Shown: in pieces, positions 40,710 through 53,414 of the stretch | How positions within the stretch are numbered: the first letter of the stretch is position 1 | Layout of the letters: the number at the start of each line of letters is the position of its first letter | From: a virus | Taxonomy: Duplodnaviria; Heunggongvirae; Uroviricota; Caudoviricetes | IMG/VR virus record: IMGVR_UViG_3300021963_000042 | Location: 1-64,000 of that record | Reading direction: 5' to 3' (one strand) | DNA length: 64,000 nt | Notes under the pieces: model-generated | Database searches by the model: none | Told to the model about the DNA's origin: nothing | Seen by the model: the letters and a program-made list of their open reading frames with translations, nothing else | Made by a program: the position numbers and the translations under genes

Positions 40710-42281
40710 TTATTTTTCCTGATTTGGTGATTCTTCATCACCGCCAAAACCATTATCTGATAGGTGCTGTTGCTGAGCAACTTGTGTAACACCTGCTAAG
40801 TAACCTTGATTAGCAGCAAGTTCAGCTGCTTTATCTTTATCTGATTCCATCTGTTCATCCATCGTCTCAATGTCTTCATCAGTTTGACGAAGGATGTTTC
40901 TGCGAACCCAATTGCTAGAGTAATACTTACCAACGAACGGATCAACCTGCTGTAATGCTGCCAATCTCTGCAACATTAATTCGTTTTCTTTTAACTCAGC
41001 AAAGTTATTGTCTTGCTGGAAGTCATAATCGATGTATTGTTCAAGTAAGTCCCACTCTTCTGGTTTAATAATATTCTTGGCAATAAGTTGAATGCGAAGA
41101 GCACCATTAAACAGACTACAGAATTTATTGCGTAGACGCTGAATAAATTTGTTAAACTTAATTTCATCACGAGAAATTTCAGTAGAACGTCCAAGGGCAA
41201 ACCCTGTAGATGCCTCTAAGCGAGACATTGGAACATTCAATGACTGATATAACTTACGTTGGAAATATTGAATATCAGCAATATCTCCCAAATTCTGACC
41301 ACCTGGAAGTGTAGTAATTTCAGTACCCTTACCACCTTCACGACGAGGCATCCAAAAATCTTCCATCATTGAAAGATGTTTGCGATCGTCACGAGTCTCG
41401 CCAGTAGTTGCATCATAAACAATCTTATTACGGAACTTGTTCATGATATCATTGACGTACTGCTCAGCCTTCAACTTAGGAAGGTTACCAACGTCAACGT
41501 AGAACACTCTACGTTCTGGAGCACGTGAAATGCGGTAGATAACTACCGCATCTTCGATCATCTTTAACTGGTTAGTTGGCTTAATTGCTTTGTGCAAATA
41601 AGACATCATCATGCCAGTATTATGATCAACTAAACCAGAAGGAACATAAACTACAGAGTCAAGTGAAAGTTTAACACCTTGAGTCTGTGCTTCAGTAATA
41701 CCTTTGTCGTTGTAGAGATAATATTCTTCTTGATTTACAACAACATCAATACCAGCTGGCGATCTCTTCTTTTCAACATTCTTAATCTTGCGAATCTTTC
41801 TTGGATCGATATAACGCAATTCTTGAATACCCGACTTCATGTTCGCTGGGTCAATAAGAATATTGTAATAACAACGACCATCGATATACCACTGACGGAA
41901 GATATCATGACCCTTGCTATTGAAATTCAATAAACGAACTATTTCGTCAAACTCAGCACTAATTTTTTTCTTGATTGGATCAGAAAGTTTCAACTTATCT
42001 AAATCAATCTTAACTACTGGGTCATCGCTCTCAGCAATAATAGCTTCGTTTACAATGTCTTCAATTGCAGCATCGCAATCCGCATATAATGCAGTCTCAC
42101 GATAGCGACGAATTAAGTCGTTTTCATTTTTAACAATCGTGTCCAAATCCATAACCATTCCATAATAGGAAGTGGCATTCGTGGATACGACTGTAGAACC
42201 ATCGTCGGAGATCGGGGATACAACAGCCCCGATCTCTTTCTGTGGCTCTTTACGTTTAATTTCAAAACCAAACAAATTCAT
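40710..42281 (-). CDS. 20: portal vertex protein gp20
   Basis: 523 aa. Synteny 19-20-21. Confidence 0.85.
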   Translation of the reverse strand: MNLFGFEIKRKEPQKEIGAVVSPISDDGSTVVSTNATSYYGMVMDLDTIVKNENDLIRRYRETALYADCDAAIEDIVNEAIIAESDDPVVKIDLDKLKLSDPIKKKISAEFDEIVRLLNFNSKGHDIFRQWYIDGRCYYNILIDPANMKSGIQELRYIDPRKIRKIKNVEKKRSPAGIDVVVNQEEYYLYNDKGITEAQTQGVKLSLDSVVYVPSGLVDHNTGMMMSYLHKAIKPTNQLKMIEDAVVIYRISRAPERRVFYVDVGNLPKLKAEQYVNDIMNKFRNKIVYDATTGETRDDRKHLSMMEDFWMPRREGGKGTEITTLPGGQNLGDIADIQYFQRKLYQSLNVPMSRLEASTGFALGRSTEISRDEIKFNKFIQRLRNKFCSLFNGALRIQLIAKNIIKPEEWDLLEQYIDYDFQQDNNFAELKENELMLQRLAALQQVDPFVGKYYSSNWVRRNILRQTDEDIETMDEQMESDKDKAAELAANQGYLAGVTQVAQQQHLSDNGFGGDEESPNQEK

Positions 42282-42301: not shown

Positions 42302-42898
42302 TTAAACTGCGATTGGGAATGAACCTAATCCTGGAACCGATACGCCAACATTAACTGTAGGACCAGTAGCATTAATAACATCAGATGTGAAGAAGTTGTA
42401 TTGGAACTCTACATCAAACTGTTCAATAGCGTTCTGTTGGTCATAGTCAAGAGCGATTGGACCGATTGTAGTTGGGAATGCATCAATGAATTTATAAGAC
42501 TTGATAACAGCGCCAGAACGATCTAGCTGATGTACGGACATATCGATTTGATAGTCACGTGGGTTAACTTTACCATCAGTAGTGTTATAGCTCTGGATAC
42601 CTGCTTGCCATTGTTCAAAGGCATTGCGGATACCGAAAGTAGTATCGTTATAGATGGAAATTGTCCAAGGTTGGAAAGTGCGCTCACCAGCAAAGTTTAC
42701 TGGACGACCCTTGTAAAGAACTTGAATGTTCTCGATGCTAGAGCCTGGAAGTTGAGCAGACTTACACAAAAATTGAGCACGTTGACCAGCTACGATACCA
42801 AGAGTAACGTATGATGGGAATGATAGTTCGACACGGAATTGATTAGGACGTGCACCGCCCCCAATCATTTGTGCTTTGAAGTCAGCAATATTTGCCAT
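42302..42898 (-). CDS. 19: tail tube protein gp19
   Basis: 198 aa. ARPNQFRVE and RTFQPWT match T4 gp19. Confidence 0.85.
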   Translation of the reverse strand: MANIADFKAQMIGGGARPNQFRVELSFPSYVTLGIVAGQRAQFLCKSAQLPGSSIENIQVLYKGRPVNFAGERTFQPWTISIYNDTTFGIRNAFEQWQAGIQSYNTTDGKVNPRDYQIDMSVHQLDRSGAVIKSYKFIDAFPTTIGPIALDYDQQNAIEQFDVEFQYNFFTSDVINATGPTVNVGVSVPGLGSFPIAV

Positions 42899-42931: not shown

Positions 42932-45109
42932 TTACGCACCGATTTCGCTGAAGTTAATACCAGAGCGAGCAGCAACGAAGTTAAGGCTAATAAAGTTAAT
43001 AGAACGTGCTGGTTTAACATAGATGTCTGCAACAAACTCGTTACGATCAATTACTTCGCCAGTGTTGTTAGAAGTATCGCACTTAACAACGAACTCAGTA
43101 ATACCACGACGACCCTGAACATCACGTAGGAATGGCTCAACTAGGTTCTTGAACTGAGCACGAGTAAAGCTGTCGTTGAATTCGAACAACTGATATTTAG
43201 CAGCAGTAGCGATAGCTTTCTCAAGAACGATGAACAGACGACGCACGTTGATGCGATCAAATGCGCTTGGCTTGCTCAATAGAGTCTTGTCACCGTAAAG
43301 AACAGTGCCTTCACCTGGGAATGTAACAACTGGGTTAACACCAGCTTTGTAGATTGTGTCACGTTCAGATCTGTCAAGAGAAACAGCAAGTTTAACTACG
43401 TTCTTGATTTGACCACGATTCAAACCACCTGGAGACCACCATGGATCGTTAGTGTTGTCAGTACGAGCGCATAGACCAGCTACGTCGCCGTTCAATGGAA
43501 CCCAACGATACTTGTCGTTGTAGCGGTCGTATTGATATTTGTAACCAGAGTCAAGAACAGCGTAAGAAGTGCTAGACAATGCATTACGGTAAGCAACGAT
43601 TTTATCGATCGCAGTAGTTTCGTTATTGTTGTTGCTAATCATGTCGCCAGTAGTTACGTCTTGTGGAGAGATGAATACAACGCAATCTTTGCGAGTTTCT
43701 GCCAATGCGATAACAGAAAGAGCAGTAGCAGCAGATGCTTTACCTAGTGGTAATAGAGAGATGTCATACAAAGACTCATCAGAGTAGATAGCCCATGCAG
43801 TTTGCAACTGACCATCAGTTACAGCGTAGTCATCAACACCACCAGTTAGGCTGTAAGTTTGGAAACCTGCAGTAGTGAATGTCTTACCAGAAGCAGTAGT
43901 ACCCCAGTTAGTGCCAGCATCTGGATGGTCAGCCCACCAGATATACTGTGAACGAGAGTTAATTACATCTTTGTAATAGTTGTTAGTTCCGTCTGGTTTC
44001 TTAGCATCAGATGCTTTAGAAACGAAAGCGAAAGTTTCTAGAGTAGAACCTGGAACACCAGTCCAAGTACCGTCTCTGTCGATAACTACAATGTGCATTT
44101 CATCGTTAGAGCCAGAAACACCAGCAGCGTAAGTAGAAGTGCTTGGAGCAGCATCAAACAAACCTTTGTAGTCCCAAGTTGCGAAGTTTAAAGAGTCGCA
44201 ATAAGAAACAGTTAGGGCATTACCCATAGATCCTGGGAACTTAGCGATCCATTCGCCAGCAACACCTTGACCATTAGCCCAGTTTAGAGTATAGTCAGAA
44301 GGGTTGTTAACGATAACACCACCGATAGTAATCGCAGCAGTTGCAGTAGCAGTAGTACCGCCAGAACCAGTTGGGTTAGCGATAGTTAGAGCTGGAGCAG
44401 AAGTGTAACCAGAACCAGCGTTAACGATAGTTAATGCAGCGATTGTAGAAGCAGTAATTGTAACAGTACCAGCAGTCGCACCAGAACCAGTTGTAGAACC
44501 GATGGTCATAGTTGGAGCAGTAGTATAGCCAGAACCAGCATTAACGATAGTTACGCCAGTAACAACGCCACCAACAATATTTGCTGTACCAGTAGCAGTA
44601 ACGCCACCTGGACGCTGAGGAGCAGAGAATGTTACAGTAGCTGCAACATAACCAGTACCGCCAGAGTTAATAGTAGCAGCAGAAACGCTACCACCAGAAA
44701 GAACTGCAGCAACTACTGCCTGAACACCACCAGCGACTTGAGGTGCGCCAACTGTAATTGTAGGAGTAGTAAGATAACCAGTACCTGCGTTAGTGATAGA
44801 AACGCCAGTAATAGAACCAGAAGTTCTAGAAACAGCATTACGTTGAGCAGATGTTGCAGCACGAGTGACCAATAGATTATTGGTATAAGATAGGAAGTTT
44901 GCTGCAGTGAAGAAAGATTGAGCAGTAGCGTCATTTGGTTTTCCGAAACGCTTAACCAATTCATTTTCAGAACTAATAGCTACTGGGGACAAAACTGGAC
45001 CCCACTGGAAAACACCAGCAAAAGCACCTGCTGTGCTAGATACTGCTGGAACGATGGAAGTTAAATCTTTTTCTGTGACTGCAACGCCAGGGCTAAGTTG
45101 GAAAGGCAT
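42932..45109 (-). CDS. 18: tail sheath protein gp18
   Basis: 725 aa. The C-terminal 300 aa align to T4 gp18 (QYDKYNDKYRWVPL...GLCARTDN, RINVRRLF, IDRNEFVADIYVKPARSINFISLNFVA). An internal domain carries four NAGSGYT..APT.TI repeats. Confidence 0.9.
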   Translation of the reverse strand: MPFQLSPGVAVTEKDLTSIVPAVSSTAGAFAGVFQWGPVLSPVAISSENELVKRFGKPNDATAQSFFTAANFLSYTNNLLVTRAATSAQRNAVSRTSGSITGVSITNAGTGYLTTPTITVGAPQVAGGVQAVVAAVLSGGSVSAATINSGGTGYVAATVTFSAPQRPGGVTATGTANIVGGVVTGVTIVNAGSGYTTAPTMTIGSTTGSGATAGTVTITASTIAALTIVNAGSGYTSAPALTIANPTGSGGTTATATAAITIGGVIVNNPSDYTLNWANGQGVAGEWIAKFPGSMGNALTVSYCDSLNFATWDYKGLFDAAPSTSTYAAGVSGSNDEMHIVVIDRDGTWTGVPGSTLETFAFVSKASDAKKPDGTNNYYKDVINSRSQYIWWADHPDAGTNWGTTASGKTFTTAGFQTYSLTGGVDDYAVTDGQLQTAWAIYSDESLYDISLLPLGKASAATALSVIALAETRKDCVVFISPQDVTTGDMISNNNNETTAIDKIVAYRNALSSTSYAVLDSGYKYQYDRYNDKYRWVPLNGDVAGLCARTDNTNDPWWSPGGLNRGQIKNVVKLAVSLDRSERDTIYKAGVNPVVTFPGEGTVLYGDKTLLSKPSAFDRINVRRLFIVLEKAIATAAKYQLFEFNDSFTRAQFKNLVEPFLRDVQGRRGITEFVVKCDTSNNTGEVIDRNEFVADIYVKPARSINFISLNFVAARSGINFSEIGA

Positions 45110-45194
45110 TGTTATTCTCCTTAATTACATGTTATTCTGTGTTTTGCTTCGAGGAGCAATTGAAAGCACTAAATTATTTATTGAAAACACGATT

Positions 45195-46775
45195 TCAAAA
45201 ATTCAAAAGTGGTTTCTCTCTTGTATCTCCATTATCAAAAAAGCCAAATGGAGTCAATTCTTCCTCCATAGCCTGTATCTTTTTCTCATACATAATCTGT
45301 CTTAGGTTCACATTATTTAGGTCTTTAAAATAGCTGGTACTTGTCATCCAACTAAACAGAACCAAAGACATGACTAAGTCATCATGATACCCTTCATCAG
45401 CCTGATAAGAAGTTCTCTTTTCAATAAAGGTAGAGATCTCGGAGATTATATCGGCATCTTGAATAATATATTTGTTCTCTTCTACGAGAGATTTAAAATT
45501 GTGACATCCAGTACGCTTGACTTTCTTATCAGTATTAACCCCAAGTTGGGTTTGTCCTCCACCAAAGCCACCTGTAATAGTTTGCATACCAGTACTTCTA
45601 TTTACAAAAACCAAGTTTTCATACTCTAGTTCATGGTGTAAAATGTATGGTACTTGTTCGCTGGAATTTATCTCAACTAGAACAAATGCCTCATTAAATT
45701 TCATTGCAACCTGATGAATTACGTTCGGGTATAGAAGTGGGCTAATATCATTCTTGCGATACTTACCGACCAATTTATATGGAATCTCAGTGATATCTGT
45801 AATGGTAAACGCTGAGTAGTCGCCACCAACACCCTTTGCAGTATCCGCAACAAGAACATAAGTATGTCCCTTAATTGGATGCTCATAAATGTCCAAGCCA
45901 TCTTTGCTAAACACTGGAACTGCAACGGACATCTTGGCAATAACATCAGCGTTAATCAGAGTCAAGCTGGAGCCAAGGAATTTACATAGAACCTCTTGGT
46001 TATACTTCAGTTCGCCGAGCATCGCTTTCTGTTCAGCAGCCCATTTCTCATCACGACCAGGAATTTCCCAGTAAGGGATAAAGCAGTTTACGAAACCATT
46101 ACGTCCATTCTCAGCATCATTCCAGAATTTCCAGAAGTGGTTATAGCCTAGCGGAGTTGAACTTAACAGAATCTTGGTTGTTTCACCAGCAGAAATAGTT
46201 GGGTAGACAGAAGTGAAGAATTCTTCGGCTACGTTGTTTGGAATAATCGCAGCTTCGTCAACATACAATAAGTTAACAGACTTACCACGAATACCAGACT
46301 TACCAGTCGCAGCAGTAAAAACTTTAGAGCCGTTCTCTAATTCGATGTCACCCTTGTTCCAAGTAGTAACACCTTGCTGCATCCACTGAGGAAGCATTTC
46401 ATACATGGTTTGGTAACGATCCAAAACTTCACGAGCAGCTGTCGCTTTGTTAGCTAGAATGGCTACGGTTTTATTAGATTGGAATAAGGTATACCAAAGA
46501 ATATAAGCTGCGGAAGTGGTCGTCTTACCCTGCTGACGACCTTCCATCAAAATAACCCTGCGGTTCTCGTGGATGATTTTTAGCTTTTTCTTCTGGCAAT
46601 CATACAGTTTAAATAACTGAAGACCATTATCTAGCGTAACGATTTGGCAATAATTCTCAACAAAGTAAATATAGTCTTCAGAACATCTAACATATTCTTG
46701 AATTTGCTCTGGAGTGAACTGGACGCTAACTCCAGCTGCCTTTAAATTCGCATTAGCATTATATACTTGTGCCAT
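45195..46775 (-). CDS. 17: terminase large subunit gp17
   Basis: 526 aa with Walker A GRQQGKT and nuclease-domain Asp residues. Confidence 0.9.
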   Translation of the reverse strand: MAQVYNANANLKAAGVSVQFTPEQIQEYVRCSEDYIYFVENYCQIVTLDNGLQLFKLYDCQKKKLKIIHENRRVILMEGRQQGKTTTSAAYILWYTLFQSNKTVAILANKATAAREVLDRYQTMYEMLPQWMQQGVTTWNKGDIELENGSKVFTAATGKSGIRGKSVNLLYVDEAAIIPNNVAEEFFTSVYPTISAGETTKILLSSTPLGYNHFWKFWNDAENGRNGFVNCFIPYWEIPGRDEKWAAEQKAMLGELKYNQEVLCKFLGSSLTLINADVIAKMSVAVPVFSKDGLDIYEHPIKGHTYVLVADTAKGVGGDYSAFTITDITEIPYKLVGKYRKNDISPLLYPNVIHQVAMKFNEAFVLVEINSSEQVPYILHHELEYENLVFVNRSTGMQTITGGFGGGQTQLGVNTDKKVKRTGCHNFKSLVEENKYIIQDADIISEISTFIEKRTSYQADEGYHDDLVMSLVLFSWMTSTSYFKDLNNVNLRQIMYEKKIQAMEEELTPFGFFDNGDTREKPLLNF

Positions 46776-46777
46776 AA

Positions 46778-47524
46778 TTAGAAATCAAATTCCCAGTTTT
46801 CTGAGTTTACTGTTGATGTAGTTACATCGCCCTCAGCTGTATAAATTCTATTCGGGTTGCTGAAGTCTTCATTCTGACCAACATTAACACCAACTTGTTT
46901 AATAATATTCTGACCACTAACTGGTCCAAACAACTGAGTCTTTAGGGTGAAGTTTAATGTGTGAGTAACAAATCTTCTTGTTTGAAAATCACCATCATAA
47001 TCATCTTGAACAGAGACGCTATTCAAAATTACTGGAACATCTACGACGATATTCATATCGTCTACAACTTTAAGTTGTATAGTATATTCAGGTGTAAATG
47101 TTGGCAGAATTTGTTCTAAGATTTGTAGTCCGTCTTCTTGAGTCTTAGATAGAATATACAGAGATATGTCTACGTTGTATGGAACTGGAGTATAAACAAA
47201 TGACATACTGTCAGAGCCTGAACCACAAGTCAACTTCTGCATTCTATTTACTTTTCTTGCAGGATCATAAGAATAGCTTGTAATCTCAAATGACATTCTT
47301 GGAAGAGAAACGTATGTGTGTCCTTCCAATGTTGGGTCAGAGTCAATTCTAACTAACCACTTTTCTTTTGGTGCGTATGCAAGAGGAACTTGCAATCTTT
47401 GTATGGTTTCCCCATTAACAGAATCGCCTTGCTTACGGTCAATATAAATGCTGCTGAACAGACGACCGAAACCTACAATCGTTTTTCTGATTATACCATG
47501 ATAATAAACATTACTGTCAAGCAT
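46778..47524 (-). CDS. 15: tail sheath stabiliser/completion protein gp15
   Basis: 248 aa. YVSLPRMSFEITSYSYDPARK and ILEQILPTFTPEY match T4 gp15. Confidence 0.7.
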   Translation of the reverse strand: MLDSNVYYHGIIRKTIVGFGRLFSSIYIDRKQGDSVNGETIQRLQVPLAYAPKEKWLVRIDSDPTLEGHTYVSLPRMSFEITSYSYDPARKVNRMQKLTCGSGSDSMSFVYTPVPYNVDISLYILSKTQEDGLQILEQILPTFTPEYTIQLKVVDDMNIVVDVPVILNSVSVQDDYDGDFQTRRFVTHTLNFTLKTQLFGPVSGQNIIKQVGVNVGQNEDFSNPNRIYTAEGDVTTSTVNSENWEFDF

Positions 47525-48423
47525 TATTTGACCTCACCGAATGGGTTGTTGTCATTAAAGAAAAAGTCTTGGCTCTCTTCTTTAAATTTATTGTTATCGC
47601 CGAATGAATCTGGTTTATCAATATTAGGTTGAACAACTGCAACTGCTTGTGCACCAGTTCCACCGCCACCACTAATAGTGACTGTTGGAGCGATTTGATA
47701 TCCTTGACCACTCTCAGTAACATCGATAGAAACGACTTGTCCGTTGGAAACTACTGCAGTAGCAGAAGCACCGAAACCTTGCGACGCTAAGAATGTTACA
47801 TCAGGTACGCTGGTATAACCAGAACCACGATGAGTTACTTCAATAGAAACAACACTTCCTGGATTGCGAGTAGTATTTGTATTGAATGTTTTAAGTGTTT
47901 CGAACGCATCTATTTCAGCGTGTCCAGTATCAATTGCTTCAGAAGCATACTGGAACAATTCAACTTGTAGTTTGTAAACATACAGTTTACCCAGCTGATA
48001 GAATGGGTCTTGGTGTTGAACGAATTTAATCTCGAACAACCCTTTAGATAGTGGGAAGTAGATTAAGTCGCCTTCGTTTGGTCTTGTAGGAATTGTTGTA
48101 ACCCCAAAGCGACCAACGAACTGTTCCCAACGTCTGCGAGCAACTACTAGAGTTGCAGACTGCTCCATCATCAAACCAAACTTCTGAATGAACGCACCCT
48201 GTCCAGCAAAGTTATCTACGTTCTCGAAGTACATCTCGATAGGGAAGGCAGACTTAAATTGTGATAGACGATCCTCACCAAGAATCTCGTCTTTGGAAAC
48301 TAATGTTCTTGGGATATACATAACCTCTTGTCCATACATACGTAGAGACTCGATGATTAGGTCTTCAATTAGGTACTGTTCATTTCGTGTACCATTAGAA
48401 AAATATACATTAGTTGTTGTCAT
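47524..48423 (-). CDS. 14: neck protein gp14-like with C-terminal repeat domain
   Basis: Position between 13 and 15. The C-terminus has two GSGYTSVPDVTF / GQGYQIAPTVTI repeats like those in gp18. Confidence 0.5.
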   Translation of the reverse strand: MTTTNVYFSNGTRNEQYLIEDLIIESLRMYGQEVMYIPRTLVSKDEILGEDRLSQFKSAFPIEMYFENVDNFAGQGAFIQKFGLMMEQSATLVVARRRWEQFVGRFGVTTIPTRPNEGDLIYFPLSKGLFEIKFVQHQDPFYQLGKLYVYKLQVELFQYASEAIDTGHAEIDAFETLKTFNTNTTRNPGSVVSIEVTHRGSGYTSVPDVTFLASQGFGASATAVVSNGQVVSIDVTESGQGYQIAPTVTISGGGGTGAQAVAVVQPNIDKPDSFGDNNKFKEESQDFFFNDNNPFGEVK

Positions 48424-48425
48424 GC

Positions 48426-49163
48426 TTATCCTAGGAAGAATTCAAGTGGAGCAGATTTAGTCATTAACTCATCTTCCAACTCTTTGATTTCTCCTGTAGC
48501 TTCGTCATACAATTTATCACCATCCAAAGTGACACCACCTGGAAGTTGAATGCCTGAAAACTTTTTAATGTTTGTTGCCCATTGACGTTTAAATAGCGCA
48601 GTTACATAGTGTTTTAACCATGCTTCGTTATACACTTTAGTGAACTCTTGTGGATCGAGAACACGATAAGCCTCAACAACAACTAAACTTCCCAATGGAA
48701 GATCTTGAGACCAGTTACAGTCGATATACAAACGATCTTGCATTCTGTTGAATCTGAACAGCTGTGGACCATTCAATTCAAAATCGAGCAAAGAGATATG
48801 GTTCATAACCATCTGATAGTAGATGATTGATGTAGAAGTTAAGTCATACAGATCGTGCAGACGCAATTGATATTGCATGTCAAACAAATTCTTTGTAGAA
48901 GATGCTTGAGTTACTGGGATAACTCTTGTGATGCCGTAAACCAGAGAGTTGATTGGGATATACTTGTTGTCAATATCAGTTTGAGTGATAGCGTGTTTTA
49001 AGTAAACACGCTCGACACCTTCATAGTGATACTGTCTCCAATATTCAAGAGCTTCGTCTATACGATCTTCTAATTGATCCTCATCTACGTTGATCTCAAC
49101 TACAGGTGCGCCCAGCGATCTAAGCGCATACTGTTTTAATCCTTCTCTTGAGCTGACTGCCAT
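48426..49163 (-). CDS. 13: neck protein gp13-like
   Basis: 245 aa. Position upstream of 14. Confidence 0.5.
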   Translation of the reverse strand: MAVSSREGLKQYALRSLGAPVVEINVDEDQLEDRIDEALEYWRQYHYEGVERVYLKHAITQTDIDNKYIPINSLVYGITRVIPVTQASSTKNLFDMQYQLRLHDLYDLTSTSIIYYQMVMNHISLLDFELNGPQLFRFNRMQDRLYIDCNWSQDLPLGSLVVVEAYRVLDPQEFTKVYNEAWLKHYVTALFKRQWATNIKKFSGIQLPGGVTLDGDKLYDEATGEIKELEDELMTKSAPLEFFLG

Positions 49164-49166
49164 TTA

Positions 49167-52100
49167 TTATTCTCCAAGTTTTGCTTTAAGAGCATTAACT
49201 TCAGCGCTAAGTTCTTGAACTGCCTTAATTAGAACAGAAACCATCTGAGCATAGTTAACTGACTTAGTACCTTCTTCATCTGGGCTAGTATGAACGAACT
49301 CAGGAATAATCTTCTCAACTTCTTGAGCAATCAAACCAATTTCGTGTTTGCCGTTATTCTTCATATCATACTCTACAGAGCGTAACTGAAGAACTGTATC
49401 TAAACCATATTTAGAGTCAACAATGTTGTCTTTTAAGCGAACGTCAGATACTTGTTGGAAGTTATTTGCTAGGATACCAGCAGAGTTATAAGTTTGAACC
49501 CAACCTGATTGAGTAGCGTAAATACCGACAGCGTATGTTGCGCTATACCAACCAGCATTACCGTTAGAACGGAACCAACCATCAGTGCCGTTAGTGTAAG
49601 CATCAGCACCTTGCAGGTACTTAGAGTAGTAAGTAGATGGTGTATAACCAAGAGCAGTAGTAACGTCACCAGAAGTCAACGTAACAGCGTTGGCACGTCC
49701 GTTGAACGTAGTAACCATTGCGTTACCAAGATATGACCACTGAACGTCAGTACCATTGGTTGTAAGAACATAACCAGATTGTCCCGCAGATTGAGAAGGT
49801 AAAAGATTAGTTCTTGCACCCTGTGCAGTAGTAGCACCAGTACCACCATTACCGATAGCAAGAGTGCCAGTAACACCTGGAGAAATATCGGCAGATCCGT
49901 TGAACGAAGCAGCGGAATTGCTTCCAAGGTTAGTAGTAATATTACGTGCAGTCTGTAGAGTAGTAGCAGTAGAAGCATTACCACTCAATGCTGCAGTAAC
50001 AGTACCTGCAGAGAAGTTACCAGAAGCATCACGGAATACAATAGTAGAACCAGTGTTAGCGCTAGTTGCGTTGCTAGTTACTGTGAAGGTTGCTGCACCA
50101 GATCCGTTGTAAGTAGTAGAACCACTTAAACCATTACCAGATGTATTTGTAGTAAATGTAGCAAGAGTACTACCAAGAGCAACACCAGAAATTGTGTTGT
50201 TTGACAATGCGCTGTTTGGGATATTGGTGAATGTATTGCTCGCACCAGACATTGTCTTGTTAGTCAATGTATCTGTTGTAGCACGACCAACCAACTGGTC
50301 AGTTGCAGCTGGTAGAGTTAAAGTACCAGAAGCTGCAGCTGTAGAAACGATTGTTGTAGCACCACTTGTAGAACCATTCAAAATCAAGTTCGTACCGAAT
50401 GTCGCTGCGCCAGTAACACCCAAAGTGCTAGAAAGAGTAGTCGCTCCAGTAACACCTAGAGTACCACCAACAGTAGTGTTTCCAGTGATAGCGCCAGTAC
50501 CAGCAACATATAGAGGCTTGTTTAGTTCCCAACGATCGCCACTAGAAGCATAAATGATAGTAGCGTTAGCGCCTGCAACAGTTAAACCAGCACCATTGGC
50601 TGCTGCAGCAGTTGCAGCGTTCTTAGCAACAGTAATGTTCAAGTCAGCAACATCAAGAGTTGTAGCGTTAACTGTAAAGGTTGTGCCAGATACTGTCAGG
50701 TTACCAGAAATAGCTAGGTTGTTATTAACAGTTGTAGTGCCAGTAGAAGCACCAAGACTCAGAGTAGTGGCAGCTCCACCGATGTTTAGAGTAGTCGCAG
50801 TAGCGTTAACCAAGTTAAATGTAGTTTGAGTAGTAGTCAAGCTACCACCATTAACTGCTACGTTGCCACCAACTGTAGTCGCTCCAGTAACACCCAGAGT
50901 GCTAGAAAGAGTCGTTGCACCAGTAACACCTAGAGTACCACCAACAGTAGCATTGTTTGTGATAGAAGCAGAAGCTGATGTTAAACCACCATTGTGAGTT
51001 GTGGCACCTGTGAAAGTAGAAGTGCCAGTTACTGCAAGGGTAGAGCTTAGTGTAGTCGCTCCAGTAACACCTAATGTTCCTGCGATAGCAGTATTACCAG
51101 AAGCAGCAGTTACGTTGAATTTGTTAGTGTTAACAGCTAGATCGCCAGTAACACCTAGAGTGCTGGAAAGAGTAGTCGCTCCAGTAACACCCACTGTTCC
51201 AGAGAATGTAGCGTTACCTGTGTGGCTAGAAGTGCCAGTCACAGATAGGTTGTTATTAACAGTTGTAGTGCCAGTAGAAGCACCAAGACTTAGAGTAGTA
51301 GCTGCGCCAGCAAAGTTAACTGTAGTGGCAACAGTGTTAAACAAGTTCTGTGTGGTATTAGAACCGACAACAGTTCCTGGACGTAGCGTCAGAGTAGCTG
51401 CAGTAGCATTACCCAGAGTAAGAGTAGTTGCTGCGCCGAATGCGTTAACAGTAGTAGCAACTGTATCGAAAACAGACTGTGTAGTATTAACACCGACAAC
51501 AGTTCCTGGACGAACAGTAACTGTAGCTGCAGTAGCATTACCCAAGTTAATAGCAGTAGCAGCGCCACCAATGTTTAACGTAGTAGCAACTGTGTTGTAT
51601 AAGTTCTGAGTTGTCTGAGTACCGACAACAGTTGGGTTACCGATAGTAAGAATACCAGAGTTAGCGCCCAAGTTAATTGTTGACGCTGCACCTAACAAGT
51701 TGGCAGTAGTAGCAGTAGTATTGAATACTGTTACGTTAGTCTGGTTGGTTAGAATATCACCACCATTAACGGAGATGTCACCAAAGATAGAGAATGTTCC
51801 GTCACAGACAATATTCTTAACAACGCTGATACCACCAGCAAAACGAACGGATCCGTTAGCAGAAGTAGTTGCGTCTGTGGTATTGGTATACGTTACGATA
51901 CCGTTATCGAATGTTACGTTAGGGTTGCTAATGGTTAACAATCCACCAGCAGTAGAGCCAATGTTTACGTTAGTTGTAGAACCTGTTAGACCACCAGTAC
52001 CTAAGTTTAACGTCTTAGTTGTTGCAGTGGCAGTAGCGCCAGTTGCAATATTTGTAGTTTGAGCTGCAGTAACACCAGTACCAATATTCAGAGTAGTCGC

Positions 52101-53414
52101 AGCACCGAATGCATTGACAGTAGATGCTACAGTATTAAATAGAGCTTGTGTGGTATTAGCGCCAACGATAGTTGGGTTGTTGACTGTTAGAGTACCAGTG
52201 CTTGCGCCTAAAGAGATAGCAGTGGCAGATCCACCAACTGTAATAGATGTTTGGGATGCGTCGTTCAGAACAGCAGTAGAAGTTAATACTGGTACGTTAT
52301 TGATCTTGAATGTTTTACCAGTAGCTAAGTTCCAGTTTTCTGAAGAAGTCCAGTTAGTATTAGTTTGATCCCAGATGATTGTTTTATCCGTAGCACCCTT
52401 AAGAGTGATACCACCACCATCGGCTGTAGCGTTAGTTGGAGTTGCTACAGAACCCAACTCAATATTTTTATCATCAACAGAAACAGTTACTGCATTAATC
52501 GTTTCAGTAGTTCCGTTTACAGTGAATGTTCCAGTAACAACCAAGTCGTTACGTACTGTAGTAGTGCCAGTAAGAGCACCGATAGAAACTGAAGTAGCAG
52601 CGTTACCAATGTTTAGCGTAGTGGCGTTAGTGTTGAATAGAGTAGCAGTCGTTGCTGTAGTAGTAACGTCACCACCATTAACTGCGATATCGGTAGCTAG
52701 GGTTGCATTGTTTGCTGAGAAGTCACCGTTGGCATCACGTGCCATAATAGCGCTGGCAGTATTGTTTGGTGTAGAGTTAACAGAAACTAATGGATTGCCA
52801 GAAACGCCATCTCCGTTGGAGACGGAAATACCTTGACCAGAAACAGTAACAGCACGACCAGTGTAAGTACCTTTAGCAGTACGAGTCACCAAACCAGAAA
52901 CTGTATTTTGTGCAACACCACGACTCTCAACACCAAGCCATTTTTCAAATGTAATAGCGTGGAGGTCTATAGTAGTAGGTTGTGAAGTTAGTTTCCAAAC
53001 AGTTTCGTTGTGAGTAGAACCCTCAGCAACGTATATAAACATACCAAGTTTAATATTTAATATTTTATCGAAGTCGAATGCACGAGTCCAAACAGCTGGA
53101 AGATCTTGAACAACGTAAATACCATTCTTGGAAGAGTCACTTTGCCCCGCAACCAGAATGCGATCACCAGCTACAACAGAAACTCCATCAATAGTTTGAG
53201 TTCCAGATAAAGTTATATTTGATGTAGTAACAACTCTAACAGGATTAGATTTATATTGTGTACTGCCAGTAACTTGTTCTAAACCACCAGGAGTCGCACC
53301 ATCATGGATGCGCATTACTTTATTAGTGGTATCAAAGGTTGGTTCTGCATTAGCACCAGTAAACGTCTGGTGCTGAGTGTAAGTACCTCTTCTTAATTGT
53401 ATTTGTGTTGGCAT
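49167..53414 (-). CDS. large fibre protein with C-terminal intramolecular chaperone (peptidase S74-type)
   Basis: 1415 aa. Fibre-type N-terminus (IQLRRGT...GEP...RIHDG). Extensive Thr/Gly/Ala/Val/Asn repeats. C-terminus DVRLKDNI...IGLIAQEVEKIIPEFV... Confidence 0.6.
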   Translation of the reverse strand: MPTQIQLRRGTYTQHQTFTGANAEPTFDTTNKVMRIHDGATPGGLEQVTGSTQYKSNPVRVVTTSNITLSGTQTIDGVSVVAGDRILVAGQSDSSKNGIYVVQDLPAVWTRAFDFDKILNIKLGMFIYVAEGSTHNETVWKLTSQPTTIDLHAITFEKWLGVESRGVAQNTVSGLVTRTAKGTYTGRAVTVSGQGISVSNGDGVSGNPLVSVNSTPNNTASAIMARDANGDFSANNATLATDIAVNGGDVTTTATTATLFNTNATTLNIGNAATSVSIGALTGTTTVRNDLVVTGTFTVNGTTETINAVTVSVDDKNIELGSVATPTNATADGGGITLKGATDKTIIWDQTNTNWTSSENWNLATGKTFKINNVPVLTSTAVLNDASQTSITVGGSATAISLGASTGTLTVNNPTIVGANTTQALFNTVASTVNAFGAATTLNIGTGVTAAQTTNIATGATATATTKTLNLGTGGLTGSTTNVNIGSTAGGLLTISNPNVTFDNGIVTYTNTTDATTSANGSVRFAGGISVVKNIVCDGTFSIFGDISVNGGDILTNQTNVTVFNTTATTANLLGAASTINLGANSGILTIGNPTVVGTQTTQNLYNTVATTLNIGGAATAINLGNATAATVTVRPGTVVGVNTTQSVFDTVATTVNAFGAATTLTLGNATAATLTLRPGTVVGSNTTQNLFNTVATTVNFAGAATTLSLGASTGTTTVNNNLSVTGTSSHTGNATFSGTVGVTGATTLSSTLGVTGDLAVNTNKFNVTAASGNTAIAGTLGVTGATTLSSTLAVTGTSTFTGATTHNGGLTSASASITNNATVGGTLGVTGATTLSSTLGVTGATTVGGNVAVNGGSLTTTQTTFNLVNATATTLNIGGAATTLSLGASTGTTTVNNNLAISGNLTVSGTTFTVNATTLDVADLNITVAKNAATAAAANGAGLTVAGANATIIYASSGDRWELNKPLYVAGTGAITGNTTVGGTLGVTGATTLSSTLGVTGAATFGTNLILNGSTSGATTIVSTAAASGTLTLPAATDQLVGRATTDTLTNKTMSGASNTFTNIPNSALSNNTISGVALGSTLATFTTNTSGNGLSGSTTYNGSGAATFTVTSNATSANTGSTIVFRDASGNFSAGTVTAALSGNASTATTLQTARNITTNLGSNSAASFNGSADISPGVTGTLAIGNGGTGATTAQGARTNLLPSQSAGQSGYVLTTNGTDVQWSYLGNAMVTTFNGRANAVTLTSGDVTTALGYTPSTYYSKYLQGADAYTNGTDGWFRSNGNAGWYSATYAVGIYATQSGWVQTYNSAGILANNFQQVSDVRLKDNIVDSKYGLDTVLQLRSVEYDMKNNGKHEIGLIAQEVEKIIPEFVHTSPDEEGTKSVNYAQMVSVLIKAVQELSAEVNALKAKLGE

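What the first reader, a model, noticed from the sequence alone, without database searches (positions are those of the whole stretch)
43230..48423. Shared ~25-aa Gly-Tyr repeat domain decorating both sheath and neck proteins
gp18 carries four tandem units: ITNAGTGYLTTPTITVGAP, INSGGTGYVAATVTFSAPQ, IVNAGSGYTTAPTMTIGST and IVNAGSGYTSAPALTIANP. These lie inside an insertion absent from T4 gp18. The gp14-like neck protein ends with two similar units (THRGSGYTSVPDVTF, TESGQGYQIAPTVTISGG). The same surface-exposed repeat on two different tail components suggests a shared decoration or glycan-binding module that has moved between genes.
Basis: seen in the sequence. Interest (0 to 1): 0.55.

Follow-up and report, generated by a model that had tools for sequence, protein, structure and literature searches.

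The report
Shared accessory domain on sheath and neck
The tail sheath and neck proteins of this uncultured T4-like phage both carry the same small, probably surface-exposed add-on domain, which belongs to a very large family that Pfam and NCBIfam do not list; this is a familiar kind of phage decoration, not a new mechanism.

Summary
The repeat is real. The sheath (gp18, 725 aa) has four units at aa 99-266. The neck protein (gp14, 299 aa) has two units at aa 190-272. A profile built from the sheath units alone finds the neck units (E 8e-8; 32 bits against at most 7.7 for 1000 shuffles).

Three details need correcting:
- The period is about 40 aa, not 25.
- The neck units are followed by a conserved 27-aa acidic tail.
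- T4 gp18 is not empty at this site: it holds its outward-facing domain I there.

Close relatives have four or two sheath units; cultured relatives (HTVC008M, DLP_6, Melnitz) have none. The module evolves faster than its host proteins. No DNA similarity links the two genes, so there was no recent transfer.

Function (adhesion, or fibre docking as in T4 domain I) is inferred, not shown.

The parts
42932..45109 (-). Tail sheath gene (gp18-like, 725 aa), the host of four repeat units
   Evidence: ORF. Pfam Phage_sheath_1, Phage_sheath_1C and Gp18_domIII_N. phmmer to T4 gp18 structures gives E 8e-99.
44312..44815 (-). Sheath module, aa 99-266: four units of about 40 aa, enough for two two-unit domains, at the site where T4 gp18 has domain I
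   Evidence: The T4 alignment runs into unit 1. The site is empty in HTVC008M, DLP_6 and Melnitz.
44681..44815 (-). Sheath unit 1 (aa 99-143), 'first-unit' type
44558..44674 (-). Sheath unit 2 (aa 146-184), 'first-unit' type
44432..44551 (-). Sheath unit 3 (aa 187-226), 'second-unit' type
   Evidence: It is 80% identical at the DNA level to unit 4 over 90 nt, at 120-nt spacing (family D3).
44312..44431 (-). Sheath unit 4 (aa 227-266), mixed type
47524..48423 (-). Neck gene (gp14-like, 299 aa), the host of two repeat units
   Evidence: ORF. Pfam T4_neck-protein on aa 7-185. T4 gp14 structures align only to aa 10-167.
47608..47856 (-). Neck module, aa 190-272: two units forming one predicted six-stranded all-beta domain
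   Evidence: AlphaFold2 gives pLDDT 90.5 and pTM 0.74 with six strands.
47728..47856 (-). Neck unit 1 (aa 190-232)
47608..47721 (-). Neck unit 2 (aa 235-272)
47527..47607 (-). Conserved acidic C-terminal tail of the neck protein (aa 273-299, ...DFFFNDNNPFGEVK). It makes the module an internal insertion, not the protein's end.
   Evidence: Alignment with P-SSM7 and ACG-2014d gp14. In T4 the gp14 C-terminal region embraces the gp15 ring (PMC12929629).

Best explanation
What it is. The feature is an accessory all-beta domain of about 80 aa, made of two repeats of about 40 aa. Each repeat reads: strand, G-x-G-Y loop, strand beginning with Pro, Gly-rich loop, strand. It belongs to a very large domain family that Pfam and NCBIfam do not model.

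Where it sits. In the sheath, four units (two domains' worth) occupy the insertion point where T4 gp18 carries its outward-protruding domain I. In the neck protein, one two-unit domain lies between the gp14 core and the acidic C-terminal tail. The equivalent C-terminal region in T4 wraps around the outside of the gp15 ring.

How it probably works. The domain would be displayed on the outer surface along the whole tail and at the neck-tail junction. It is not part of the contractile or genome-gating machinery. It behaves like the Ig-like accessory domains of other phages: gained, lost and duplicated as a cassette, and evolving faster than its host proteins. The most likely role is weak, multivalent adhesion to surface polymers of the host or of particles.

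Shown: homology between the two genes, the two-unit fold prediction, promiscuity, copy-number variation, and faster evolution.
Inferred: surface exposure and the adhesion function.
Probable but not proven: distant kinship with T4 gp18 domain I.
For: Homology between the two genes:
- Cross-protein HMM and shuffle test, and BLASTP.

Two units make one domain:
- Units come mostly in twos and fours among 240 proteins.
- A close relative's sheath has 2 units instead of 4.
- The AlphaFold2 model of the two-unit neck segment has pLDDT 90.5 and six strands.

Promiscuity:
- Pfam on the host proteins shows Phage_TTP_11 split by the module, SU10_adaptor, Phage_gp53, Laminin_G_3 and T4_neck-protein.
- PHROGs for tail fibre, baseplate wedge and giant virion proteins match the repeat region.
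- A profile census finds 26,605 representative clusters at E<=1e-3 and 2,331 at E<=1e-30, with proteins holding up to 44 matched stretches.
- One such protein lies in a T4-like baseplate gene block.

A solved member:
- Dpo31 tailspike residues 432-505 match the profile at E 2e-4.
- This is its protruding Ig-like insertion domain D3*, residues 434-536 (PMC13317679).

Accessory nature:
- Absent from the sheath and neck of HTVC008M and DLP_6, and from the sheath of Melnitz, whose neck gene was not examined.
- The neck module is 48-58% identical among relatives, against 84-90% for the core. The sheath module is 45-58%, against 70-75%.

Position and exposure:
- T4 domain I sits at the same site.
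- It protrudes outward and makes no inter-subunit contacts (PMC3004832).
- The T4 gp14 C-terminal region lies outside the gp15 ring.

Kinship with T4 domain I:
- The profile's only hit in T4 gp18 is aa 101-145.
- 2 of 58 members weakly hit Pfam Gp18_dom_I.
Against: - Foldseek against the PDB found nothing (best E 0.74), neither T4 gp18 nor Dpo31.
- Profile-profile comparison with eleven T4-type domain I sequences is weak (P 0.0085, 21 columns, probability 4.7%).
- The window proteins do not reach the Pfam Gp18_dom_I threshold.
- The four-unit sheath model is of low confidence (pLDDT 68), so how the four units pair is unknown.
- In T4, domain I has specific protein-binding roles (baseplate, retracted fibres) rather than a known glycan-binding role.
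Confidence: 0.55

Rival explanations
1. Fibre-docking surface. The module is the counterpart of T4 gp18 domain I. Like it, it binds the phage's own long fibres (or neck fibres) when they are folded back along the tail. Having the same module on the sheath and at the neck would give a continuous docking track that controls fibre deployment.
For: - It sits at the same insertion site as T4 domain I and has fold-level similarity to T4 gp18.
- T4 domain I binds retracted long tail fibres. Mutations G106S, S175F and A178V in two of its loops inhibit retraction (PMC3004832).
- T4 G106 (G107 when Met1 is counted) is the Gly that aligns with the first Gly of the G-x-G-Y motif.
- S175 and A178 lie in 'SSSSSGLAAV'. 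By eye this corresponds to the Gly-rich loop and last strand of unit 2; this correspondence is my inference and is not statistically supported.
- A 1415-aa fibre gene lies at the position of T4 wac, next to gp13.
Against: - The same module occurs in siphovirus tail tubes, a podovirus tailspike, adaptors, and giant proteins with dozens of copies. Stowing of long fibres cannot be the common function in those settings.
- Homology to T4 domain I is weak.
- Close relatives tolerate two instead of four units.
Confidence: 0.2
2. Structural cement. The extra domains contact neighbouring sheath subunits, or the top sheath ring and the neck, and so stabilise the extended tail and the neck-tail joint. 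They would not bind anything external.
For: - Stabilisation by additional sheath domains has been proposed for other myophages (PMC9230969).
- The neck module lies just before the tail segment that in T4 clamps gp15.
Against: - T4 domain I makes no inter-subunit contacts.
- The module is missing altogether in the cultured relatives examined, which have otherwise similar tails.
- It evolves much faster than the cores, which is unexpected for an interface.
Confidence: 0.15
3. Compositional artefact. Gly/Thr/Ala/Ser/Val-rich low-complexity stretches look alike without being homologous.
For: BLAST's low-complexity filter removed the whole sheath repeat region: tblastn against phages returned nothing.
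Against: - Shuffles of the same composition score at most 7.7 bits, against 32 bits for the real sequence.
- Positions are conserved in register: G18, G57, Y60 and P64 are invariant and four more columns are at least 90% conserved in 58 diverse members.
- The structure prediction is confident.
- The profile finds thousands of full-length matches at E<=1e-30.
Confidence: 0.02

Closest known systems
T4 gp18 tail sheath domain I (Pfam PF22639 Gp18_dom_I; residues 98-188 of PDB 3FO8/3FOA)
   Same: - It has the same insertion point in the sheath polypeptide, and its N-terminal motif aligns (T4 YTISTPGSNY...ITV).
- Both have six beta strands (PMC3004832).
- 2 of 58 members weakly hit the Pfam model.
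- In T4 it is outward-facing and not needed for subunit contacts.
   Different: - The match is below every sequence threshold.
- The predicted domain has no alpha-helix.
- It is clearly built from two similar 40-aa repeats.
- It is present in two domains' worth in this sheath, and also in a neck protein and many non-sheath proteins.
- Foldseek does not link them.
D3* insertion domain of tailspike depolymerase Dpo31 of Cobetia marina podovirus Carin-1 (PDB 28lx, 28mg, 8ck1; PMC13317679)
   Same: - It is the only solved structure that the module profile finds by sequence (E 2e-4), with two G-x-G-Y units at residues 432-505.
- It is an inserted domain that protrudes from the host fold, described as Ig-like.
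   Different: - The host is a beta-helix tailspike of a podovirus.
- The authors did not recognise it as part of a family.
- Its function is unknown; a role near the catalytic site or in sugar binding is only speculated.
Promiscuous Ig-like accessory domains on phage virion proteins (Big_2, I-set and FN3 on tail tube, Hoc, sheath and others; as reviewed in PMC9230969, which cites the original Ig-like domain survey)
   Same: - It has the same lifestyle: a small all-beta module appended to or inserted in many kinds of virion proteins, exchanged horizontally, dispensable, and proposed to bind surface carbohydrates weakly.
- The module here sits in a lambda-like tail tube protein. From my own knowledge, lambda gpV carries a Big_2 domain at its C-terminus.
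   Different: - It does not match any Pfam Ig-like family.
- It has six strands arising from an internal duplication, not a seven- to nine-strand Ig sandwich.

Membership tests
Pfam PF22639 Gp18_dom_I (T4 sheath domain I) | Sequence match to the family model at or above its gathering score (27 bits) | tested here: not met
   There was no hit for the window sheath at E<=0.01 or for the repeat regions at E<=10. Only 2 of 58 family members reach E 0.005-0.1. T4 itself scores 133 bits.
Pfam PF22639 Gp18_dom_I (T4 sheath domain I) | Inserted into the sheath polypeptide right after the domain III N-terminal segment and the short domain II strand (T4 residue ~98) | tested here: met
   The phmmer alignment of T4 gp18 residues 4-119 to query residues 5-121 runs into unit 1. 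The flanks align with HTVC008M, DLP_6 and Melnitz, where the site is empty.
Pfam PF22639 Gp18_dom_I (T4 sheath domain I) | Six-stranded beta-barrel plus one alpha-helix (PMC3004832) | tested here: inconclusive
Ig-like accessory domains of phage virion proteins (Big_2 / I-set / FN3) | Match to one of the Ig-like Pfam families | tested here: not met
   No such family was hit by the window proteins or by any of the 58 aligned members.
Ig-like accessory domains of phage virion proteins (Big_2 / I-set / FN3) | Occurs as an appended or inserted cassette on several unrelated classes of virion structural proteins | tested here: met
   It occurs on sheath, neck, tail tube, adaptor, gp53, tailspike and giant baseplate-block proteins.
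Ig-like accessory domains of phage virion proteins (Big_2 / I-set / FN3) | Weak binding to cell-surface carbohydrates | not testable with these tools
   This needs a purified domain and binding assays.
Dpo31 D3*-type insertion domain | Sequence-profile similarity covering the G-x-G-Y units | tested here: met
   hmmsearch of profile A2 against PDB sequences gives E 2.1e-4 with two stretches, at residues 432-460 and 447-505.
Dpo31 D3*-type insertion domain | Superposable three-dimensional fold | tested here: inconclusive
T4-type neck protein gp14 (Pfam PF11649) and T4-type sheath gp18 (PF04984, PF17482, PF22671): the host proteins | Match above the gathering score, and conserved gene order gp13-gp14-gp15-...-gp18-gp19-gp20 | tested here: met
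   Pfam scores are 119 bits (neck) and 61, 67 and 36 bits (sheath). Gene order is shown.

The most novel reading that the evidence does not exclude
The two-repeat beta domain and T4 gp18 domain I are one ancient, so far unnamed superfamily. Its conserved G-x-G-Y loop and Gly-rich loop form a specific binding surface, at the same loops where T4 mutations G106S, S175F and A178V block fibre retraction. Sheath and neck would then together present a continuous docking track that stows and releases the phage's fibres. Elsewhere, the same surface has been re-used as a general ligand-binding cassette on tail tubes, tailspikes and giant baseplate proteins.
Probability: 0.15. Interest if true: 0.6.

Novelty: new member of a known kind. 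Interest (0 to 1): 0.38.

Why it matters
The module marks a domain family that matches 26,605 representative clusters (clustered at 50% identity). Some proteins hold dozens of copies. No Pfam or NCBIfam model covers it, so a large share of 'hypothetical' sequence in environmental T4-like phages, including giant baseplate and fibre proteins, could be annotated with one profile. If the link to T4 gp18 domain I holds, it would connect a well-studied T4 surface (fibre retraction, baseplate contact) to this family and give testable loop residues. As it stands, the finding fits the established picture of exchangeable accessory domains on phage virions and does not change it.

Tried and rejected
Searches that led nowhere:
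1. tblastn of the sheath repeat region against cultured phages returned nothing. The low-complexity filter masks the query, so this says nothing about distribution.
3. Foldseek of the good model against the PDB found no match (best E 0.74).
4. The search for homologous proteins with T4 domain I gave a single hit. That tool seems to return only proteins of a length similar to the query, which also means the 684 hits undercount long proteins.
5. hhalign of the module profile against eleven T4-type domain I sequences fetched one by one gave only P 0.0085 over 21 columns.
6. A literature search for the motif strings found nothing relevant.

Ideas rejected:
- Compositional artefact.
- Recent transfer between the two genes. 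Protein identity is only 35-38% and no DNA repeat links them.
- A simple tandem A-B-A-B duplication in the sheath. Units 1 and 2 are both 'first-unit' type, unit 3 is 'second-unit' type, and units 3 and 4 share 80% DNA identity. This fits either a nested copy (A[A'B']B) or two single-unit duplications, and I could not decide between them.
- Membership of any Pfam Ig-like family.
Full report
CONTEXT
The region lies in the structural block of an uncultured T4-like myovirus, all on the minus strand. The genes in order are:
- portal, 40710-42281
- tail tube, 42302-42898
- sheath, 42932-45109 (725 aa)
- large terminase, 45195-46775
- gp15, 46778-47524
- gp14 neck protein, 47524-48423 (299 aa)
- gp13, 48426-49163
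- a 1415-aa fibre, 49167-53414

No cultured phage is close at the DNA level. By sheath protein, the nearest isolates are Stenotrophomonas phage DLP_6, Pelagibacter phages Mosig and HTVC008M, and Methylophilales phage Melnitz, at 54-58% identity over the core only. The exact neck protein occurs on metagenomic contigs with the same gene order.

OBSERVATION
All six quoted strings are present. The true repeat is longer than reported. G.GY motifs are spaced 39-42 residues apart. Each unit has a strand before the G-x-G-Y loop, a strand beginning with Pro after it, a Gly-rich loop, and a third strand (A-x-A-x-A-x-h).

The similarity between the two genes is statistically sound and not circular:
- A profile made from the sheath units alone picks out the neck ORF as the only other hit among all six-frame ORFs of the window (E 7.9e-8).
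- It scores 32 bits on the real neck region, against at most 7.7 bits for 1000 shuffles.
- The reverse test gives E 2.4e-5.
- BLASTP gives E 4e-11 at 35-38% identity.
- No other ORF of the 64-kb window carries the unit.

Two further corrections apply. First, the neck units are followed by a conserved acidic tail of 27 residues, which cyanophage gp14 proteins share. Second, T4 gp18 is not empty at this site. Its domain I (Pfam Gp18_dom_I, aa 96-188) sits exactly there, and its first strand and loop (YTISTPGSNYAVGDKITV) align with unit 1.

THE STRUCTURAL UNIT IS A PAIR
- Among 240 related proteins, the units come mostly in twos and fours.
- All but one of the 120 best neck homologues have exactly two units; the remaining one has one.
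- Four close relatives have sheaths with four, four, four and two units.
- The two-unit neck segment, with a 58-sequence alignment, folds with high confidence into six strands (pLDDT 90.5, pTM 0.74).
- The four-unit sheath segment folds poorly as a whole (pLDDT 68).

Within four-unit sheaths, units 1 and 2 both resemble the first unit of a pair. Unit 3 resembles the second unit, and unit 4 is mixed. Units 3 and 4 share 80% DNA identity over 90 nt. This excludes a simple A-B-A-B tandem duplication. It fits either a copy nested inside a copy or two single-unit duplications, and I could not tell which.

WHAT THE DOMAIN IS RELATED TO

- the shared insertion site;
- the local sequence match at T4 aa 101-145;
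- the six-strand count, since T4 domain I is a six-stranded barrel plus a helix (PMC3004832);
- two weak member hits to Gp18_dom_I.

DISTRIBUTION
- Short proteins carrying the module include lambda-like tail tube proteins with the module inserted mid-chain, SU10-type adaptors, gp53 baseplate wedge proteins, a Laminin_G_3 protein, and sheath fragments.
- PHROG families for tail fibres, baseplate wedges and giant virion proteins match the repeat region.
- A full scan of 1.84 billion representative proteins gives 26,605 matches at E<=1e-3, 13,353 at E<=1e-10 and 2,331 at E<=1e-30. It is headed by proteins of 1000-7000 aa with up to 44 matched stretches.
- Eight of these proteins have no significant Pfam domain. 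One lies among gp25, gp6 and baseplate-wedge genes. One has a pilin-like N-terminus.
- Among cultured phages, Synechococcus phage ACG-2014d has the pair in gp14, nested inside another module. P-SSM7 gp14 has only that other module. HTVC008M and DLP_6 have no units in sheath or neck, and Melnitz has none in its sheath; its neck gene was not examined.

EVOLUTIONARY BEHAVIOUR
Among relatives, the neck module is 48-58% identical while the rest of the protein is 84-90%. The sheath module is 45-58% identical against 70-75% for the rest. No DNA similarity links the sheath and neck modules. The two genes therefore acquired or retained the module long ago. 'Moved between genes' is true of the family but is not a recent event here.

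MECHANISM
Shown: one homologous, dispensable, fast-evolving cassette in two tail-associated proteins.

Inferred from T4: the cassette is displayed on the outside. Domain I protrudes from the sheath and makes no subunit contacts (PMC3004832). The gp14 C-terminal region wraps the outside of the gp15 ring (PMC12929629). If the tail were T4-like, with 138 sheath subunits (PMC3004832), there would be roughly 280 copies of the domain along the tail, plus six at the neck. This count is my extrapolation.

The best-supported role is that of an accessory adhesion or decoration domain, as proposed for the Ig-like domains of other phages (PMC9230969). A more specific alternative is fibre docking. T4 domain I binds retracted long fibres. 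The retraction-defective mutation G106S hits the Gly that aligns with the first Gly of G-x-G-Y. The module's presence in tail tubes, tailspikes and giant multi-copy proteins argues for a more general function.

VERDICT
It is a new member (an unmodelled family) of a known kind of phage accessory domain. The interest is moderate: chiefly the size of the unannotated family and the possible tie to T4 gp18 domain I.

Noticed in passing
L016:6040-6999, L017:5998-6999, L018:6034-6999 (gp13 of relatives); L001:5953-6879 (P-SSM7 gp14); L002:9028-10095 and L002:17504-18672 (ACG-2014d gp14 and sheath): A second, unrelated exchangeable module of about 75-85 aa (pattern G-E-x-V-x-G-x-x-S-G-A-x-A-x-V ... 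L-x-V ... G-x-F-x-x-G-E) is inserted in gp13 of three close relatives. It is absent from the window's gp13 (245 aa). By eye, the same pattern is in cyanophage gp14 and in the ACG-2014d sheath.
   Followed up: partly
L002:9028-10095 (Synechococcus phage ACG-2014d gp14): The G-x-G-Y pair is nested inside the other module, that is, a domain inserted within an inserted domain. This shows how freely these cassettes enter loops.
   Followed up: partly
window 44312-44815: The order of unit types in four-unit sheaths is first, first, second, mixed, and units 3 and 4 are 80% identical in DNA. This suggests either a nested self-insertion or two single-unit duplications. The pairing of the four units is unresolved.
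   Followed up: partly
window 49167-53414 (-): A 1415-aa fibre protein lies at the position of T4 wac. It has an Mtd_N N-terminus, long Thr/Gly/Ala/Asn-rich internal repeats (for example TLGVTGATTLSSTLGVTG) and a C-terminal Peptidase_S74 intramolecular chaperone. It does not contain the G-x-G-Y unit.
   Followed up: partly
window 46775-46778 (junction of gp15 and the large terminase); the same in L014 and L016-L019: There is no small-terminase gene between gp15 and the large terminase. T4, P-SSM7, ACG-2014d, HTVC008M and DLP_6 all have gp16 there. TerS must be encoded elsewhere.
   Followed up: no
L021:6501-8486, L022:6501-8516, L023:6501-8492 (HTVC008M, DLP_6 and Melnitz sheaths): These sheaths have nothing at the domain I site. 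They carry a different insertion further downstream, in the domain II region (for example HTVC008M ITIDDAGGDKIQAGDIIEFGD...YYKVTSVDGAVLTIARF).
   Followed up: no
P0373 (834 aa) and P0316 (1131 aa): The module is not strictly viral in its annotation. One multi-copy protein has a PilX_N pilin-like N-terminus, and another is deposited as a Dehalococcoidia MAG protein on a 7.5-kb contig. Whether these are cellular or prophage genes was not checked.
   Followed up: partly
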